Source: Callorhinchus milii (lineage: Eukaryota). Taken from it: DNA of 64,000 bases. This document shows, in pieces, positions 12,001 through 24,900 of this stretch. The DNA lies in contig NW_024704747.1 in assembly GCF_018977255.1 (NCBI RefSeq), positions 186,001 through 250,000 of the forward strand, given 5' to 3'. Each line of letters opens with the position of its first letter. The stretch's first letter is position 1. Made by a program: the position numbers.

Positions 12001-15000
12001 TGTGAGCTGATCTCCATCTCTCTTTCTCTCTGGCGGCAGCCCGCTGGCCGACAAACAGACCATCCACGTGGGGAACCTGCGATTCCAGGCTCTGGCCACC
12101 CCCGGGCACACCATTGGGCACATGATCTACGTGCTGGACGGTTCCCCGCACCACGGCCCCGCGTGCGTCTTCTCCGGGGACCTGATCTTCCTATCCGGCT
12201 GCGGTAAGTCCCGCCCCATCACCAGCACCATAACCAGCACCGGGTCTCCCCCAGCGCCTCACACACATCGCGCCATGTCCTCCTGTCTTCATCAGGACAG
12301 AACAACTCGTCCTGGAATTTCACACTAGTGTCACACATTCACTGCTCACACTCGTTCGTCGCCGGGGTGCACAAGCTNNNNNNNNNNNNNNNNNNNNNNN
12401 NNTGGGGCTCTCCCCCCCCCCACCATGGTATCAGTGATGGGGCTCTCCCCCCCTCTTCCCCCCCCCCCCCATGGTGTCAGTGATGGGGCTCTCCCCCCCC
12501 CCCCCCATGGTGTCAGTGATGGGGCTCCCCCCCCCCCCCCCCATGGTGTCAGTGATGGGGCTCTCCCCCCCCCCCCCCCATGGTGTCAGTGATGGGGCTC
12601 TCCCCCCCCCCCCCCCCATGGTGTCAGTGATGGGGCTCTCCCCCCCCCCACCATGGTGTCAGTGATGGGGCTCTCCCCCCCTCCCCCCCCCCCCCCCCAT
12701 GGTGTCAGTGATGGGGCTCTCCCCCCCCCATGGTGTCAGTGATGGGGCTCTCCCCCCCTCTCCCCCCTCTCTCTCTCTCTCTCTCTCTGGAGCCGGAAAT
12801 GATGTTGTGTTGAAGCCGGAACCAGGAAGTGCAGCCCCGCCCTGAGCCACAGACACACAGAGGGACACAGAGGGACACAGACCCCCACACACAGCCCCAC
12901 ACAGACCCCCACACACAGCCCCACACAGACCCCCACACACAGCCCCCGGAGCCGCCGCCATGATCCTCCTGGAGATAAACAACCGCATCATCGAGGAGAC
13001 GCTCAGCCTCAAACTGGACAACGCGCTGACGGGGTACAGGGCCTCTCCCCCCCCCCCACCCCCCCACAGGGCCGCTCCCCCCACCACACCCCCCACCCCC
13101 CCACAGGGCCGCTCCCCCCCACACACCCCCACACCCCCCACAGGGCCGCTCCCCCCCACACCCCCACACCCCCCCACAGGGCCGCTCCCCCCCCACAGGG
13201 CCGCTCCCCCCACCACACCCCCCCACCCCACAGAGCCGCTCCCCCCCCCCCCCCATAGGGCCGCTCCCCCGCAACCCCCCCCCTGGGGACTGAGGGCTGA
13301 GGTTGGGGTCTGAGGCCTGAGGGTGGGGCTGAGGCCTGAGGTGGGGCGGGGGGTGGGGGCTGAGGCCTGAGGGTGGGGGCTGAGGCCTGAGGTGGGGGCG
13401 GGGGGTGGGGGCTGAGGCCTGAGGTGGGGGCTGAGGGCTGAGGTGGGGGCGGGGGTGGGGCTGAGGGCTGAGGGTGGGGCTGAGGTGGGGGCTGAGGCCT
13501 GAGGTGGGGGCTGAGGGCTGAGGCCTGAGGTGGGGGCGGGGGGTGGGGGCTGAGGGCTGAGGCCGGGGCTGGGACCCGGGGCCGGGCTTTTGGAGCTGAT
13601 GGTTTAGGGGAAGGTCGGGGTGTGGTCCGGGTGGAGGCTGTGCTGCCTGTTCTTCCCATTCCCCCCTTTCCAGCCCCTCGACTCCCCCGCAAGTGTCTGG
13701 CAGACGGGGTCCATTGGGATCTGTTTCCCTTTAAGCGCTCGGGGACGCCGTATAAGTGCAAGTTGTTATTGTTGTTTCCCTTTAGACGTTCCAATGGATT
13801 CTGCCTCTCCGGCTCCCACCCTCTCGCCAGCCCCAGTGTTCCTGATGTCCCCGCTAACAGTCCCGGCTCCGATTTCTGTACTGACCTGCCCGCTCCCTCC
13901 GCTCAGTGGGCCCCAGTCTGACCCACATCCCTCTGGGACTCCATCCCGGAACCCCTCCACCTCGCCCCCTCCCCTCCCTTGCCTTCTTCAAGGCACGCCT
14001 CAAGACCTTCCTCTTTGTCTGTGCCTTGGGTCACCCTCCTACCCCTGCTCTCCACCTCTCCTGATCATAACCCCCAGCTCGGGTGCAGATCCTTGGCTGT
14101 CCAGCACCTTGGAGACGTCCTCCCAACGTGAAAGGCGCCGTGTAAATGCAATTTGTTGTGAAGGGGTTAATGGCCGAGTGAGTGACATTAGGGAGTCCAC
14201 ATTGTTCCCATTTTCTGTCATCTCAGTGAATCGTTGTCTTAAAAGCCCTGTTTCCTTGTCCCTCCCATTGATCTCAGTCTGGCTCACTCGCTGGTGCCCG
14301 CACACACACGTCTGGGTGAAAGGGAGTCGGTTGGAGTCCCGCGTTGGGGATGTGGAGCTCACAGTCCAGGCTTAATAGTAAATACAGGGAAGGCTGACTA
14401 CCAGGCATGACAGCCTCCCACTCTGCCACTCCCAGCTCCCCTGCACAATACACAGCGATGGCTGGGATCAGCTACTGGGCTTGACGTTAATGTGGTGAGA
14501 CACACAGTGGGTCTAGGAGCGAGGGAGGAGTGTAAACAGGAAAGTATGAACAGGACTGTAGGCCGCTCAGTGCCTCGAGCCTGTCCGCCACTCTATAAGA
14601 TCATGGCTGATCTGGACCTTAACTCCAATTTACCTGTGTTATCAGTCAGGGCCCCTCATCAGTCCAGGCATTACCTGAATGGTGTCTGGCCAGAGAGAGT
14701 CTATGTAGTCTCTGGGTCAGTGAGTGAGCTGACAAACTGAATAGTTCTTTCTCTTTCTACAGCAACAAGCCTGACACAGTGGAAGTCACGTTTGCAGGTA
14801 AGATCGAGGCTCAGGGAACCTCCGAGCTGTGTTGTGCAGACAGGCATCAGCCGGGCTCATTGGGTAGCACTTGCCTCTGAATCAGAAGATTGTGGGTCCA
14901 TTCCCCGAAGGTAATAATCCCTTCAAAAAAAGAAAAAACGTGAAGAAGAAATAATTTGGTCACTCAATCCACAACTGTTTGTGGGACGCTGCTGTGCCCA

Positions 15001-21900: not shown

Positions 21901-24900
21901 GTAGATTATGGCTGGATCCACTCACATTGTCCAGACTGAGGTGATAGATCAGTGGATCAAGAGATAAATCCAGGGTTACGGGGCAAAGGCGGGTAAATGA
22001 AGTTGAGGCTGAATGGCCTGTTACTGTGTTCCAGACTTGCTGCTTGTCAGAAGCTCTGAGTAGGGAGAACTCTTGACAAGTATAAGCTGGCGACTGGGAG
22101 GATCTGAAAGAGAATTTAGGAGGAACAACTTCCCGCAGAGGGTAGTGAGAGTGTGGAACTCGCTGCCTGAAGCAACGGTTGAAAGATAATGTAGATATAT
22201 TCAAGAGGAGACTGGACCTTCACATGAAGGAGAGGGGAATAGAGGGTGTGGGAGGGGGAGTATAAACACGGCACAGACTGGCTGGGCTGAGTGGTTTGTT
22301 TCCGTGCTGTATAGTCTGTGTAGATCTATGTAACCCAGGAAGGCTCTTTCTCAAGCCTGTCACCAAACCACCTGATGATGGGAATGGGCTTCTGCCTCAC
22401 AGTCAGGTCAGCCTTCAGGCTGTCAGTATGTGGGTGACTTTGTGCACAATTCAATCAGACTGGGGTATGGCCAGTCACTGGCTGAGGAGGAGAGTGACTG
22501 AGCCGAGACTGACAAACAGGCAATTTTACCAGGAACTTTTATTCAAAAGTTTTTACACTGTTAGTGAGCAGTGAGTGTGAGGTGGTTACAGTGTTAGTGA
22601 GCAATGAGTGAGCGGTTACAGTGTTAGTGAGCAGCAAATGTGAGCAGTTACTCTTAGTGAGTGGTTAGTGTTAGTGAGTGGTTAGTGTTAGTGAATGTGA
22701 GCGGTTAGTGTTAGTGAGTGTGAGCAGTTAGTATTCGCACAAGTGTCACACACTTAACAGCTCACACTCACTCTGCTCCTCCTGTAGTGCACAGGCTAAT
22801 CACAAGAATTGCACACTCACTGCTCACACTCACTCCGCCTATGTTACACACTCACTCTGTTTGACACGCAGGCAGGATATTTGAGGGCAGCTGTCCGCTC
22901 ATGCTGACTTCATTGGACATTGTGAATGCTCTCGGAGATGAGACCCTCCTATGGCCAGGTAATCAAAGCTGCCCCCCCCACCCTCCCAGAGCCTCCTCCC
23001 CACCCTTCCTGATCCGTAGCCCCGCTGCCTCGCCCCCCTCCCTTGCCTCCTTCAAGACCTATCTCAAGACCTTCTTTTTCGACCGTGCCTTCGGTCACCC
23101 TCCCACCCCCCCTTGCCTTCCACCCCTGATATCTGTGAGTTGGTTTTGGATGGGGAGATGGTGTTGATGACTATTTGTGTGCTTGTCTCCAGGTCACGAG
23201 TACGCACAGGACAATCTGCTATTTGCTGCTTCAGTTGAGCCAAAGAACGTAGCTGTGTTTAACAAGTTGGATTGGGTAATAGCTCGCAGGCAAGAGAAGC
23301 TTGGCACAGTGAGTAGTTGCCAGGTCCTCGGCCTCCTCTGCCACCTCCTCCCCATCATGGAGTCCTGTAGCGTAGTCATTAGAGTGCTCACCTCACAAGC
23401 CAGAGGACCCGGGTTCGATTCCCGGGCAGGTCAGGGCGAAATCTTAGGCAAGTTTCCTTACTCCACACTGTTTACCAGCAGTAAGTAGGAACCTGGTTGT
23501 TAGTCGATTGGCGGATCGCTTTACAGTGTTAATATCTTAAAAATAACTCAATCCACGACTGTTTGTGGGAAGCTGCTGTGTGCAATTGGCTGCCGAGTTT
23601 CGCCCACAAAACACTCAGTCAATTAATGTTACAGTATATTTGGTGAAGGGCTTTGAGATGTCTCAATGTGATAAGGCGCTATATCATATGCAAGGATTAT
23701 TATTATATTATAAGATGCCCCCCCGTGTCCTCACCTCCCCAGCATCATCTCACACACAGCCATGTGGTGAACGACCACTTCACATGGAGGATTGTCGGCC
23801 AAGATGCCGAGAGAGAAATTCCTTTCTCTTTCCCATGGTGTCCTGGGATCTTTAACGTCTGCCTGAACAGATAGACGGGGACTTCGTTACCATTTCATCC
23901 CAAGGACGGTACTTTCCACAGTGCGGTGCAGTGCAGGAGCGTCAGCCCTGACAATGAACTCAGAGACCACCTACTCGGGTCCTCAAACCCACCATCTTCT
24001 CACCTAGGTTTTAAGAATTGTTTTGTCCCAGTAGGCACAGTCGAAGAGGAAGATCTTCAGGCATGACCTGAAGATGGGGAAGGAAATGGTAAGGCGGTGG
24101 GATAGAGGGAGAGTGTTCCAGAATTTCAGGGCGTAGTGGCTGAAAGTATGGCCACCATTGTTAATGTAATGTATCTTCATGGTGGAACGTCACAATGAAT
24201 GGTGTGCCCGGTGAGCAGGCTGGTGTGGAGGGTTCTAACTCTGTGCTGTGCCTTTGCTTTCCCCCAGTGCCCGTCCACCATCCGGGAGGAGAAGGAGTAC
24301 AACCCTTTCCTGCGGACACACTGCCCCGACCTGCAGCAGGCGCTGGGGGTGCAGCGGGGGACCGGTGAGGACCCCCACGCTTTCAGGGCCCGCGTGCTGG
24401 AGGAGGTGCGCAAGCGTAAGGACTATTTCAACTGCAGATAGCAGTCTAAGCAAGCCCCCATCCCACCTCTCTGCCCAACCCTCCTCTCTGCCCCTCTCTC
24501 TGTGCCTCACTCTCTCTATCCCTCTCTCTCTGCTCCCCTCTCCCTGCCTCTCGCTTTTTCTCTCTCTCCTCCCCTTCTCTCTCAGCCCCCTCTCTCTGCC
24601 TCTGCCCCTCCCAGCCATCTCCGTGTACAGGAGAAAGTGAGCAACGGTGACACGGAGAGTTATAGGAACTGTGAACGAGACTGTGAACTCGCCATCGCCG
24701 GAGAATAGTGAGCGATACTGCCGTGAGATGTGCTTCTGCTCTGCCTCGCCACTGTCACTGTGAACATCCAGCTTGATGTGAAGACAGGAAATACCAGGTG
24801 CCAGTGTGTGAGCGGCATCTCTCAGACCTGGTTACCTGTGACGTACAACAGAGAAAGCTAAAAGCCGCATTGGTGTATCTGCCTCACTTTATTCATGGGC

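What the first reader, a model, noticed from the sequence alone, without database searches (positions are those of the whole stretch)
12204..22871. Complete ARPC2 gene nested on the same strand inside PNKD intron 6
Seen: PNKD exon 6 (...SGCG, phase 1) joins exon 7 (GRIFEG) across 10.7 kb. That interval holds all 10 ARPC2 coding exons, an ETS-type promoter and poly(A) signals, all on the same strand. Known: in human, ARPC2 lies upstream of PNKD, and same-strand nesting of multi-exon genes is rare. Inference: if real, PNKD transcripts must skip about 10 functional exons and a poly(A) site, and PNKD-ARPC2 chimeras should form. For example, PNKD exon 6 is phase-compatible with the ARPC2 acceptors at 15381, 17774 and 19067. 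An assembly artefact is at least as likely.
[Added by the scan's program, not by the reader: the finding's places include an assembly gap (unread letters, written N; its length is only estimated) at 12378 to 12402. Whether the letters on both sides are continuous or in frame is not known: test that first.]
Basis: partly seen in the sequence, partly recalled or inferred. Interest (0 to 1): 0.75.

Follow-up and report, generated by a model that had tools for sequence, protein, structure and literature searches.

The report
ARPC2 nested inside elephant-shark PNKD intron
In this elephant shark sequence a complete, intact actin-regulator gene (ARPC2) sits on the same strand inside one intron of the PNKD gene, which is an unusual but not unprecedented gene layout that is probably real and not an assembly error.

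Summary
The window is Callorhinchus milii (elephant shark). PNKD has 9 coding exons (7299-24438, + strand), and intron 6 is exactly 12204-22871 (10,668 nt; the other seven introns are 234-1214 nt). That intron contains all 10 coding exons of ARPC2 (12960-21291, + strand, all GT-AG, 300 codons), ETS-type motifs 135-165 nt before the ATG, and two poly(A) hexamers after the stop.

Two named C. milii database proteins map exon by exon: PNKD at 352 of 353 residues and ARPC2 at 299 of 300. The PNKD protein reads straight across the exon 6/exon 7 junction.

The 25-N gap lies in non-coding repeats, 174 nt after exon 6 and 557 nt before the ARPC2 ATG. No coding sequence is missing, but continuity across the gap cannot be shown here. 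Gap-free sequence to the right already puts ARPC2 1.58 kb upstream of PNKD exon 7, so the nesting does not depend on the gap.

Two repeat families are each split across the breakpoints. Swapping the ARPC2 block with PNKD exons 1-6 would rejoin both and give the order ARPC2 then PNKD (recalled as the human order). I read this as an old local transposition; an assembly artefact is less likely (about 0.2). No chimeric proteins were found. Conservation in other cartilaginous fishes could not be tested. Interest is modest.

The parts
6569..6881 (.). SINE copy ending at the start of minisatellite M_L
   Evidence: blastn self-comparison finds 12 other copies in the window at 69-81% identity
6880..7037 (+). 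Minisatellite M, left array (M_L), about 260 nt upstream of the PNKD ATG
   Evidence: 3 exact 26-nt units at 6918-7011; 82-92% identical to 12403-12767
7299..12203 (+). PNKD coding exons 1-6: 7299-7438, 8176-8291, 8945-9057, 10272-10330, 11162-11254, 12040-12203
   Evidence: tblastn of P0001; junction solver, all GT-AG; CpG o/e 0.60-0.75 at 7001-8000
12204..22871 (+). PNKD intron 6, 10,668 nt; it hosts ARPC2
   Evidence: the other 7 PNKD introns are 234-1214 nt
12319..12377 (+). Repeat unit D, the last 59 nt before the gap; related to D' at 22733-22797
   Evidence: Smith-Waterman score 26 against a background mean of 10.2 (sd 2.2), next best 18, over 788 windows; alignment A1
12378..12402 (.). 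Assembly gap of 25 N; the only scaffold-level join in the window
   Evidence: flanked by D on the left and by a partial M unit on the right
12403..12767 (+). Minisatellite M, right array (M_R), directly upstream of the ARPC2 promoter region
   Evidence: 9 matches of the 26-nt unit; TRF period 36, 8.5 copies
12793..12830 (+). ETS-type motifs (CCGGAA twice, AGGAAGT), 135-165 nt upstream of the ARPC2 ATG; putative promoter
   Evidence: motif scan; no transcript start evidence
12960..21291 (+). ARPC2, 10 coding exons with stop TAA at 21289-21291
   Evidence: Pfam P34-Arc on exons 5-9; tblastn of P0124, 299 of 300 residues; junction solver
20811..20921 (+). SNORD89-family C/D box snoRNA inside ARPC2 intron 9
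   Evidence: Rfam RF00578, 51 bits (gathering score 41), full-length model match, C and D boxes visible
21446..21559 (+). ARPC2 poly(A) hexamers: ATTAAA at 21446 and AATAAA at 21554
   Evidence: the only two between the stop codon and PNKD exon 7
22553..22732 (-). Tandem array of about 30-nt units loosely related, in inverted orientation, to D, D' and D''; forms a palindrome with 22733-22871
   Evidence: TRF; self-inverted match 22713-22772; duplex -112 kcal/mol with 22733-22871
22733..22871 (+). Units D' (22733-22797) and D'' (about 22798-22860), then the acceptor of PNKD exon 7
22872..24441 (+). PNKD coding exons 7-9 (22872-22958, 23193-23308, 24268-24438) plus stop TAG
   Evidence: exon 8 hits HAGH_C

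Best explanation
The window is an elephant shark (Callorhinchus milii) locus. An intact, intron-containing ARPC2 gene, with promoter-type motifs, its own poly(A) signals and a snoRNA in its last intron, lies on the same strand inside intron 6 of an intact 9-exon PNKD gene.

Origin (inferred). An old local transposition moved the ARPC2 block relative to the 5' half of PNKD. It could have been a tandem duplication running from inside minisatellite M to inside the D repeat, followed by reciprocal deletions, or a three-break swap. The starting order was ARPC2 then PNKD, as recalled for human, and the breakpoints fell in the two minisatellites.

Expression (inferred). ARPC2 is transcribed from its own promoter. 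PNKD mRNA forms only from polymerases that start at the PNKD promoter, read through the ARPC2 promoter, gene body and poly(A) sites, and then join the exon 6 donor (12204) to the exon 7 acceptor (22871). All of ARPC2 is discarded as intron, possibly after ARPC2's own introns have already been removed. Read-through transcripts that instead use the ARPC2 exon 2 acceptor go out of frame and hit a stop codon in exon 3, so they should be unproductive.

What is shown: the anatomy, the intactness of both genes, and a database PNKD protein that spans the junction. What is inferred: the origin and the RNA-processing route.
For: Species and genes:
- PNKD exon 6 finds one protein at 100% identity, UniRef V9KGH0_CALMI 'Putative hydrolase PNKD', C. 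milii.
- That protein maps to 9 colinear exons at 352 of 353 residues and reads across the exon 6/7 junction.
- All 17 of 17 introns are GT-AG, and the coding sums of 1059 and 900 nt equal the protein lengths.

Independence from the gap:
- There is a single N run.
- ARPC2 through PNKD exons 7-9, CATIP and an SLC4 gene are on one gap-free stretch.

Footprints of a block swap:
- The 26-nt unit of M occurs 12 times, at only two sites, 6918-7011 and 12425-12755. None is expected by chance.
- The last 59 nt before the gap align best, out of 788 windows, to 22733-22797 just upstream of exon 7 (score 26; next best 18; mean 10.2, sd 2.2) (alignment).
- Without the ARPC2 block, intron 6 would be roughly 300 nt, close to intron 7 at 234 nt.

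Other points:
- The 3' side keeps the mammalian order Pnkd-Catip (passage of PMC5485475).
- Reading ARPC2 exon 3 in the frame set by an exon 6 to exon 2 join meets TGA (read, phases).
- The paper on the C. milii genome reports deposited RNA-seq transcripts JW861113-JW881738 (passage). That V9K-series UniProt entries derive from them is recalled, not checked.
Against: - Physical continuity from PNKD exon 6 to the ARPC2 promoter rests on a scaffold join across 25 N. The sequences on the two sides belong to different repeat families, so nothing in the window shows that they abut.
- Both inferred internal junctions (about 7012-7030 and 22732/22733) lie in minisatellites, where assemblies are weakest.
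- The D/D' similarity is short (59-65 nt, about 78%). D', D'' and D are units of one repeat family, so the 'split array' reading is suggestive but not proof.
- No genome-annotated C. milii PNKD protein appeared among the 120 listed relatives, so no independent genome annotation of the junction was seen.
- No nucleotide transcript, read or second assembly could be examined, so read-through, poly(A) bypass and the order of splicing are untested.
- The ARPC2 5' region has low CpG o/e (0.16-0.19), and its transcription start is not shown.
Confidence: 0.6

Rival explanations
1. Assembly artefact. The true genome has the order ARPC2 then an uninterrupted PNKD with a short intron 6, and the assembly has mis-ordered the two blocks at minisatellites and across the gap.
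For: - A gap lies exactly between PNKD exon 6 and the ARPC2 promoter.
- All three block boundaries lie in tandem repeats with homopolymer runs.
- Swapping the blocks would rejoin the M array and the D/D'/D'' array.
- The draft assembly described in PMC3964593 has an N50 contig of only 46.6 kb (passage). That this window comes from that assembly version is my inference, from the Ensembl-type model P0123 matching intron text.
Against: - Only one of the three new adjacencies is a scaffold join. The other two (M_L to the G-rich array at about 7012-7030, and the inverted array to D' at 22732/22733) lie inside gap-free sequence, so two separate chimeric contigs would be needed.
- If the human-like order were true, M and D would each be a single array. 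There would then be no repeat ambiguity to mislead an assembler.
- The arrays are short (about 100-370 nt), within reach of single Sanger-length reads.
Confidence: 0.2
2. The nesting is real but ancestral or widely shared (in chondrichthyans, or even early jawed vertebrates), and bony vertebrates later moved ARPC2 out. The repeat pairs at the boundaries would then be coincidental local minisatellite spread.
For: - No other cartilaginous-fish genome could be examined, so lineage specificity is untested.
- ARPC2 and PNKD are neighbours in human too (passages of PMC5485475).
- Minisatellite units can spread locally without any rearrangement.
Against: - The M and D repeat pairs sit exactly at the block edges. 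Such fast-evolving repeats would not be expected to keep a several-hundred-million-year-old footprint (inference).
- No PNKD-ARPC2 chimeric gene models appear among the listed relatives from sharks, rays and bony fishes: 0 of 120, 0 of 120, and no fitting length and match pattern among 150 unnamed representatives. This is weak evidence, because predictors need not fuse nested genes.
Confidence: 0.15
3. The window holds a rearranged duplicate of the locus, and the PNKD mRNA comes from another, un-nested copy elsewhere in the genome.
For: - The database proteins each differ from the window by one residue: PNKD residue 80 is Y in the protein and N in the window; ARPC2 residue 121 is S in the protein and F in the window.
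- A tandem-duplication intermediate is part of the favoured origin model.
Against: - Both genes in the window are fully intact, with canonical splice sites.
- No second copy or exon remnant of either gene is found in the 64 kb.
- A single-residue difference fits allelic variation or transcript error.
Confidence: 0.05

Closest known systems
Human/mouse 2q35-type locus ARPC2 - GPBAR1 - AAMP - PNKD (with TMBIM1) - CATIP - SLC11A1
   Same: The same genes are neighbours. PNKD is followed by CATIP on the same strand here too (CATIP_N hits at 30321-30536 and 32066-32344; mouse order (Pnkd)-Catip-Slc11a1 in a passage of PMC5485475). ARPC2 and PNKD are on the same strand.
   Different: In mammals ARPC2 lies wholly upstream of PNKD (the order is recalled; only lists the genes as neighbours). 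Here it lies between PNKD exons 6 and 7. No AAMP, GPBAR1 or TMBIM1 exons were seen by eye in the six-frame listings. An SLC4 anion-exchanger gene, not SLC11A1, follows CATIP on the opposite strand.
Intronic nested genes of vertebrates in general
   Same: A complete gene lies within one intron of a host gene. Transcriptional interference, exonisation and premature polyadenylation of the host are the known consequences (abstract and passages of PMC3192792).
   Different: [quoted passage not shown] This one is same-strand, has 10 exons, and is a housekeeping cytoskeleton gene with its own snoRNA. It makes the host intron about 9 to 46 times longer than its other seven introns.
Human PNKD as host of TMBIM1 (recalled, not checked here)
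   Same: PNKD already tolerates a gene inside one of its introns in human.
   Different: As I recall it, that gene is on the opposite strand and sits in the 5' intron of the long isoform. Here the guest is on the same strand and splits the metallo-beta-lactamase domain coding region.

Membership tests
ARPC2 / p34-Arc (Pfam PF04045) | P34-Arc domain above the gathering score | tested here: met
   5 of the 7 exons sent (exons 5-9) score 36-52 bits (cut-off 27), colinear over profile positions 36-242 of 243. Exons 1 and 3 (24 and 37 aa) gave no hit. Exons 2, 4 and 10 were too short to send.
ARPC2 / p34-Arc (Pfam PF04045) | Full-length colinearity with a named ARPC2 protein; intact frame and splice sites | tested here: met
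   P0124 (NCBI ARPC2, C. milii, 300 aa) maps at 299 of 300 residues. All 9 of 9 introns are GT-AG; 900 nt plus TAA.
ARPC2 / p34-Arc (Pfam PF04045) | Expression from its own promoter | not testable with these tools
   Only motifs are available: ETS cores at 12793-12830 and PAS hexamers at 21446 and 21554. No transcript nucleotide data.
PNKD (HAGH-like metallo-beta-lactamase fold hydrolase) | Lactamase_B and HAGH_C domains | tested here: met
   Exon 8 hits HAGH_C positions 1-33 (E 1.7e-6). Exons 6 and 7 alone gave no Pfam hit. The matching protein P0001 carries precomputed PF00753 and PF16123 and maps at 352 of 353 residues.
PNKD (HAGH-like metallo-beta-lactamase fold hydrolase) | Orthology to PNKD and not to HAGH or HAGHL | tested here: met
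   117 of the 120 listed relatives are named by their sources (PNKD in most, a few 'hypothetical' or 'uncharacterized') and none is named HAGH or HAGHL; shark and ray PNKD are 69-77% identical. No tree was built.
Same-strand intronic nested gene pair | Whole guest coding sequence inside one host intron, on the same strand | tested here: met
   ARPC2 at 12960-21291 lies within PNKD intron 6 at 12204-22871; both are on the + strand.
Same-strand intronic nested gene pair | Host exons on both sides joined in one mRNA | tested here: met
   P0001 reads across the exon 6/7 junction. Its transcript origin is recalled (V9K-series UniProt entries from the deposited transcripts named) and was not verified.
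Same-strand intronic nested gene pair | Uninterrupted physical continuity of the host across the guest | tested here: inconclusive
   A 25-N gap at 12378-12402 separates exon 6 from the guest. The guest to exon 7 stretch is gap-free.
SNORD89 (Rfam RF00578) | Covariance-model score above gathering; C and D boxes | tested here: met
   51 bits against 41, model positions 1-114 of 114, with AUGAUGA and CUGA present.

The most novel reading that the evidence does not exclude
A holocephalan-specific local transposition dropped a highly expressed 10-exon housekeeping gene (with its own snoRNA) on the same strand into the middle of the PNKD catalytic-domain coding region. Both genes stayed functional. 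Every PNKD mRNA must therefore come from a polymerase that ignores an active promoter and a canonical poly(A) site, and from a spliceosome that bypasses nine competing acceptors. That would be a natural test case for poly(A)-site bypass and nested or ordered intron removal. The minisatellite footprints still record how the rearrangement happened.
Probability: 0.45. Interest if true: 0.45.

Novelty: new member of a known kind. Interest (0 to 1): 0.3.

Why it matters
If real, this is a clean natural example of a same-strand, multi-exon, strongly expressed gene inside a small host gene. It comes from a genome reported to rearrange slowly (that passage, concerns interchromosomal rearrangements). 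It could be used to ask how host transcripts escape a guest's poly(A) signal and splice sites, and how local gene-order changes arise at minisatellites. It is also a caution for annotation, because the Ensembl-type ARPC2 model of this species is visibly wrong at this locus. It does not change what is known about either protein. I found no paper describing this arrangement: the one search with PNKD, ARPC2 and nested found 86 papers holding at least two of the terms, and none of the 20 listed concerns this arrangement.

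Tried and rejected
1. Long-range RNA bridge. I asked whether the D unit near the 5' end of intron 6 pairs with the inverted array near its 3' end and so loops out ARPC2. 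The duplex of 12290-12377 with 22553-22732 is -52.6 kcal/mol, but 38 of 148 random 88-nt window segments do as well or better. Rejected. The inverted array pairs far better with its own neighbours D' and D'' (-112 kcal/mol). A first, larger version of this script timed out.

2. Chimeric PNKD-ARPC2 proteins in databases.
- 0 of 120 listed hits (388 in all) to the PNKD protein carry PF04045.
- 0 of 120 listed hits (637 in all) to ARPC2 exon 5 carry PF00753 or PF16123.
- Among the 150 listed unnamed representatives (12,979 hits), none combines a match ending near residue 229 with a length of 450 or more.
- These unnamed hits were not fetched or scanned, because a human origin could not be excluded. 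One of them, P0258 (334 aa), has a match ending at the exon 6/7 boundary and stays unexamined.

3. Remnant exons. No extra PNKD or ARPC2 exon fragments were found elsewhere in the window by tblastn.

4. Flank similarity. The ARPC2 3' flank (21292-22871) matches nothing else in the window at E<0.01 apart from its own palindrome.

5. Cluster members of the PNKD protein.

6. Comparison with other vertebrate genomes.

7. Joined spliced models. Searches were exon by exon, and full-length comparisons used database proteins.

8. Supplementary files. The supplementary notes of the genome paper (assembly method, gap conventions, synteny tables) could bear on the gap and were not seen.

Full report
**The gap, tested first**

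The window has a single N run, 12378-12402 (25 N).
- It lies 174 nt after the donor of PNKD exon 6 (12204) and 557 nt before the ARPC2 ATG (12960).
- No coding frame of either gene crosses it. Both coding sequences are complete without it: 1059 nt = 353 codons for PNKD and 900 nt = 300 codons for ARPC2, equal to the lengths of the matching database proteins.
- The last 59 nt on the left belong to one repeat family (D). The first bases on the right are a partial unit of a different minisatellite (M) rich in C runs.
- Nothing in the window shows that the two sides abut. The join is at scaffold level, and its true length is unknown.

**What is there**

PNKD exon 6 (54 aa) found one longer protein at 100% identity: UniRef V9KGH0_CALMI, 'Putative hydrolase PNKD', Callorhinchus milii, 353 aa, with Lactamase_B and HAGH_C domains. 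The window is therefore elephant shark, not human.

That protein (P0001) maps by tblastn to nine colinear + strand exons, with one mismatch in 353 residues. A junction solver found a GT-AG solution for each of the eight junctions. It was unique for seven; junction 6 had a second, one-mismatch alternative, and the exact match was kept.

| PNKD coding exon | Coordinates |
|---|---|
| 1 | 7299-7438 |
| 2 | 8176-8291 |
| 3 | 8945-9057 |
| 4 | 10272-10330 |
| 5 | 11162-11254 |
| 6 | 12040-12203 |
| 7 | 22872-22958 |
| 8 | 23193-23308 |
| 9 | 24268-24438, then TAG |

The PNKD introns are 737, 653, 1214, 831, 785, 10668, 234 and 959 nt.

ARPC2 lies inside that intron on the same strand.
- P0124 maps at 299 of 300 residues.
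- All nine introns are GT-AG.

| ARPC2 coding exon | Coordinates |
|---|---|
| 1 | 12960-13033 |
| 2 | 14763-14797 |
| 3 | 15381-15493 |
| 4 | 17638-17683 |
| 5 | 17774-17960 |
| 6 | 18341-18434 |
| 7 | 18763-18889 |
| 8 | 19067-19167 |
| 9 | 19730-19830 |
| 10 | 21267-21288, then TAA |

Searched exon by exon against Pfam, exons 5-9 hit P34-Arc colinearly (profile positions 36-242 of 243). Exons 1 and 3 gave nothing. PNKD exon 8 hit HAGH_C, and PNKD exons 6 and 7 alone gave nothing. I sent no joined spliced model to any search. The full-length comparisons used proteins that the database tools returned.

**Signals**
- ETS-type cores lie at 12793, 12816 and 12824, which is 135-165 nt upstream of the ATG.
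- The only poly(A) hexamers between the ARPC2 stop and PNKD exon 7 are ATTAAA at 21446 and AATAAA at 21554. There are none in the 9 kb before the stop.
- These are motif matches only. No transcript start or end was available.
- CpG o/e is 0.60-0.75 over the PNKD 5' region but only 0.16-0.19 over the ARPC2 5' region, which is dominated by C-rich repeats.

**Phases**
- PNKD exon 6 leaves one nucleotide over.
- The nearest acceptor, exon 2, follows an exon that leaves two. An exon 6 to exon 2 join therefore shifts the frame, and exon 3 read in that frame meets TGA (read).

**Real or artefact**

The sequence from 12403 to 64000 is gap-free. In order, it contains:
- all of ARPC2;
- a LINE-like fragment;
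- a tandem array at 22553-22732;
- PNKD exons 7-9;
- CATIP exons (CATIP_N hits at 30321-30536 and 32066-32344);
- on the opposite strand, an SLC4 anion-exchanger gene.

So ARPC2 ends 1.58 kb upstream of PNKD exon 7 whatever the gap hides. The stretch 1-12377 is also gap-free. It places PNKD exons 1-6 behind unrelated, SINE-rich sequence, not behind ARPC2. A PNKD protein joins exon 6 to exon 7, so exons 1-6 must lie upstream of exon 7 on the same strand. With both contigs taken as correct, the only place for them is upstream of ARPC2.

**Breakpoint footprints**

The block edges carry paired repeats.
- *M repeat.* The 26-nt unit of M occurs 12 times in 64 kb (none expected by chance) and at two sites only. 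Three units lie about 290 nt upstream of the PNKD ATG (6918-7011). Nine units lie immediately right of the gap (12425-12755). The two arrays are 82-92% alike.
- *D repeat.* The last 59 nt before the gap (12319-12377) align to 22733-22797, just upstream of exon 7. The score is 26 and is the best of 788 windows; the next best is 18, and the mean is 10.2 with sd 2.2. A second unit follows at about 22798-22860.
- *Consequence.* Exchanging the ARPC2 block with the PNKD exon 1-6 block would rejoin M into one array upstream of ARPC2. It would also rejoin D, D' and D'' into a short intron 6 of roughly 300 nt, close to intron 7 at 234 nt. The result is the order ARPC2 then PNKD, which I recall as the human order.

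Either that order is ancestral, or it is the present truth and the assembly is wrong. I favour the first.
- If the human-like order were the truth, M and D would each be a single short array. There would be no repeat ambiguity to mislead an assembler.
- Two junctions that lie inside gap-free sequence (about 7012-7030 and 22732/22733) would have to be chimeric independently.
- This is an argument, not a measurement. All three boundaries lie in the kind of sequence where draft assemblies fail. The genome paper reports an N50 contig of 46.6 kb (passage).

I put the artefact at about 0.2.

**How it would work (inferred)**
- ARPC2 runs from its own promoter.
- PNKD mRNA needs polymerases that start near 7300, pass the ARPC2 promoter and both poly(A) hexamers, and reach exon 7.
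- The strong exon 6 donor (GTAAGT) must then be paired with the exon 7 acceptor.
- One route is that ARPC2's own introns are removed first, which would leave no free acceptor before exon 7.
- Transcripts that use the exon 2 acceptor would be out of frame.
- Known effects of nested genes on hosts are intron retention, exonisation and premature polyadenylation (abstract and passages of PMC3192792).
- I tested one specific idea, an RNA bridge between D and the inverted array, and rejected it: 38 of 148 random controls did as well or better.

**Chimeras and conservation**
- No PNKD-ARPC2 fusion model was seen: 0 of 120 listed PNKD relatives, 0 of 120 listed ARPC2 relatives, and no fitting length and match pattern among 150 unnamed representatives.
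- The unnamed representatives were not fetched, because a human origin could not be excluded.
- Two fused models of neighbouring genes did appear in other species. A sturgeon model combines CATIP_N with PNKD domains, and a bat model combines a 7tm_1 domain with P34-Arc. They fit the usual neighbourhoods in those animals. That the 7tm_1 part is GPBAR1 is my guess.
- No vertebrate genome collection was available, so whether other cartilaginous fishes share the nesting stays open.

**Comparison with what is known**
- Nested genes are a known kind. A paper's introduction cites about 63% of human nested genes as opposite-strand and about 41% as single-exon. A same-strand 10-exon guest is therefore in the minority but not unprecedented.
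- Human and mouse keep these genes as neighbours, with Pnkd followed by Catip (passages of PMC5485475). That ARPC2 is upstream of PNKD in human, and that human PNKD hosts TMBIM1 on the opposite strand, I recall but did not check.
- One search with PNKD, ARPC2 and nested returned 86 papers holding at least two of the terms. None of the 20 listed concerns this arrangement.

**Verdict**

The arrangement is probably real, and it is a new member of a known kind. Interest is modest.

Noticed in passing
window 20811-20921 (+): A full-length SNORD89-family C/D box snoRNA (Rfam RF00578, 51 bits against gathering score 41) lies in ARPC2 intron 9. That gives three levels of nesting: snoRNA in ARPC2 in PNKD. 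In human, SNORD89 is reported in an RNF149 intron (passage of PMC5025248), so the host gene differs.
   Followed up: partly
window 6918-7011 and 12425-12755 (+): The same C-run minisatellite (26-nt core, 12 matches, none expected) occurs only at these two sites, each about 200-290 nt upstream of a start codon (PNKD and ARPC2). The left array starts at the truncated end of a SINE copy (6569-6881).
   Followed up: yes
window 22553-22871: The stretch upstream of PNKD exon 7 is a palindromic minisatellite: about six inverted 30-nt units, then two direct 62-nt units. The predicted duplex between the halves is -112 kcal/mol, and it ends 11 nt before the acceptor. Its effect on exon 7 splicing is unknown.
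   Followed up: partly
window 30321-34154 (+); 42421-51198 (-); 28420-28854 (-): Downstream genes. CATIP is present (CATIP_N hits, and an RIIa-like match just under its cut-off). An SLC4-family anion exchanger lies on the opposite strand (HCO3_cotransp and Band_3_cyto). Between PNKD and CATIP there is a reverse-transcriptase fragment of a LINE.
   Followed up: partly
protein P0123 (UniRef A0A4W3GUU6_CALMI) against window 18435-18520, 19680-19830 and 20400-21300: The Ensembl-type ARPC2 model of this species lacks exon 1, reads into intron 6, skips exons 7 and 8, and ends in a wrong frame of exon 10. This is a visible mis-annotation at this repeat-rich locus.
   Followed up: partly
window about 8272-8274 (PNKD residue 80) and about 17864-17866 (ARPC2 residue 121): There is a single-residue difference between the window and each database protein. 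PNKD has N here and Y in P0001. ARPC2 has F here and S in P0124. The ray orthologue P0125 also has F. These are probably alleles or transcript errors.
   Followed up: no
window 19227-19677 (ARPC2 intron 8) and 13051-13571 (ARPC2 intron 1): Long tandem arrays fill much of two ARPC2 introns: an 18-nt unit in 25 copies, and 37-nt and 50-nt units. The arrays in intron 1 begin about 20 nt after the weak exon 1 donor (GTACAG).
   Followed up: no
window 5634-5696 (-) and 53131-53202 (-): There are two Rfam tRNA matches just above threshold (37 and 32 bits), while ARAGORN finds no tRNA. I take them for the tRNA-derived heads of SINE copies. The second lies at the end of a SINE copy that matches 6569-6881; for the first this was not checked.
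   Followed up: partly
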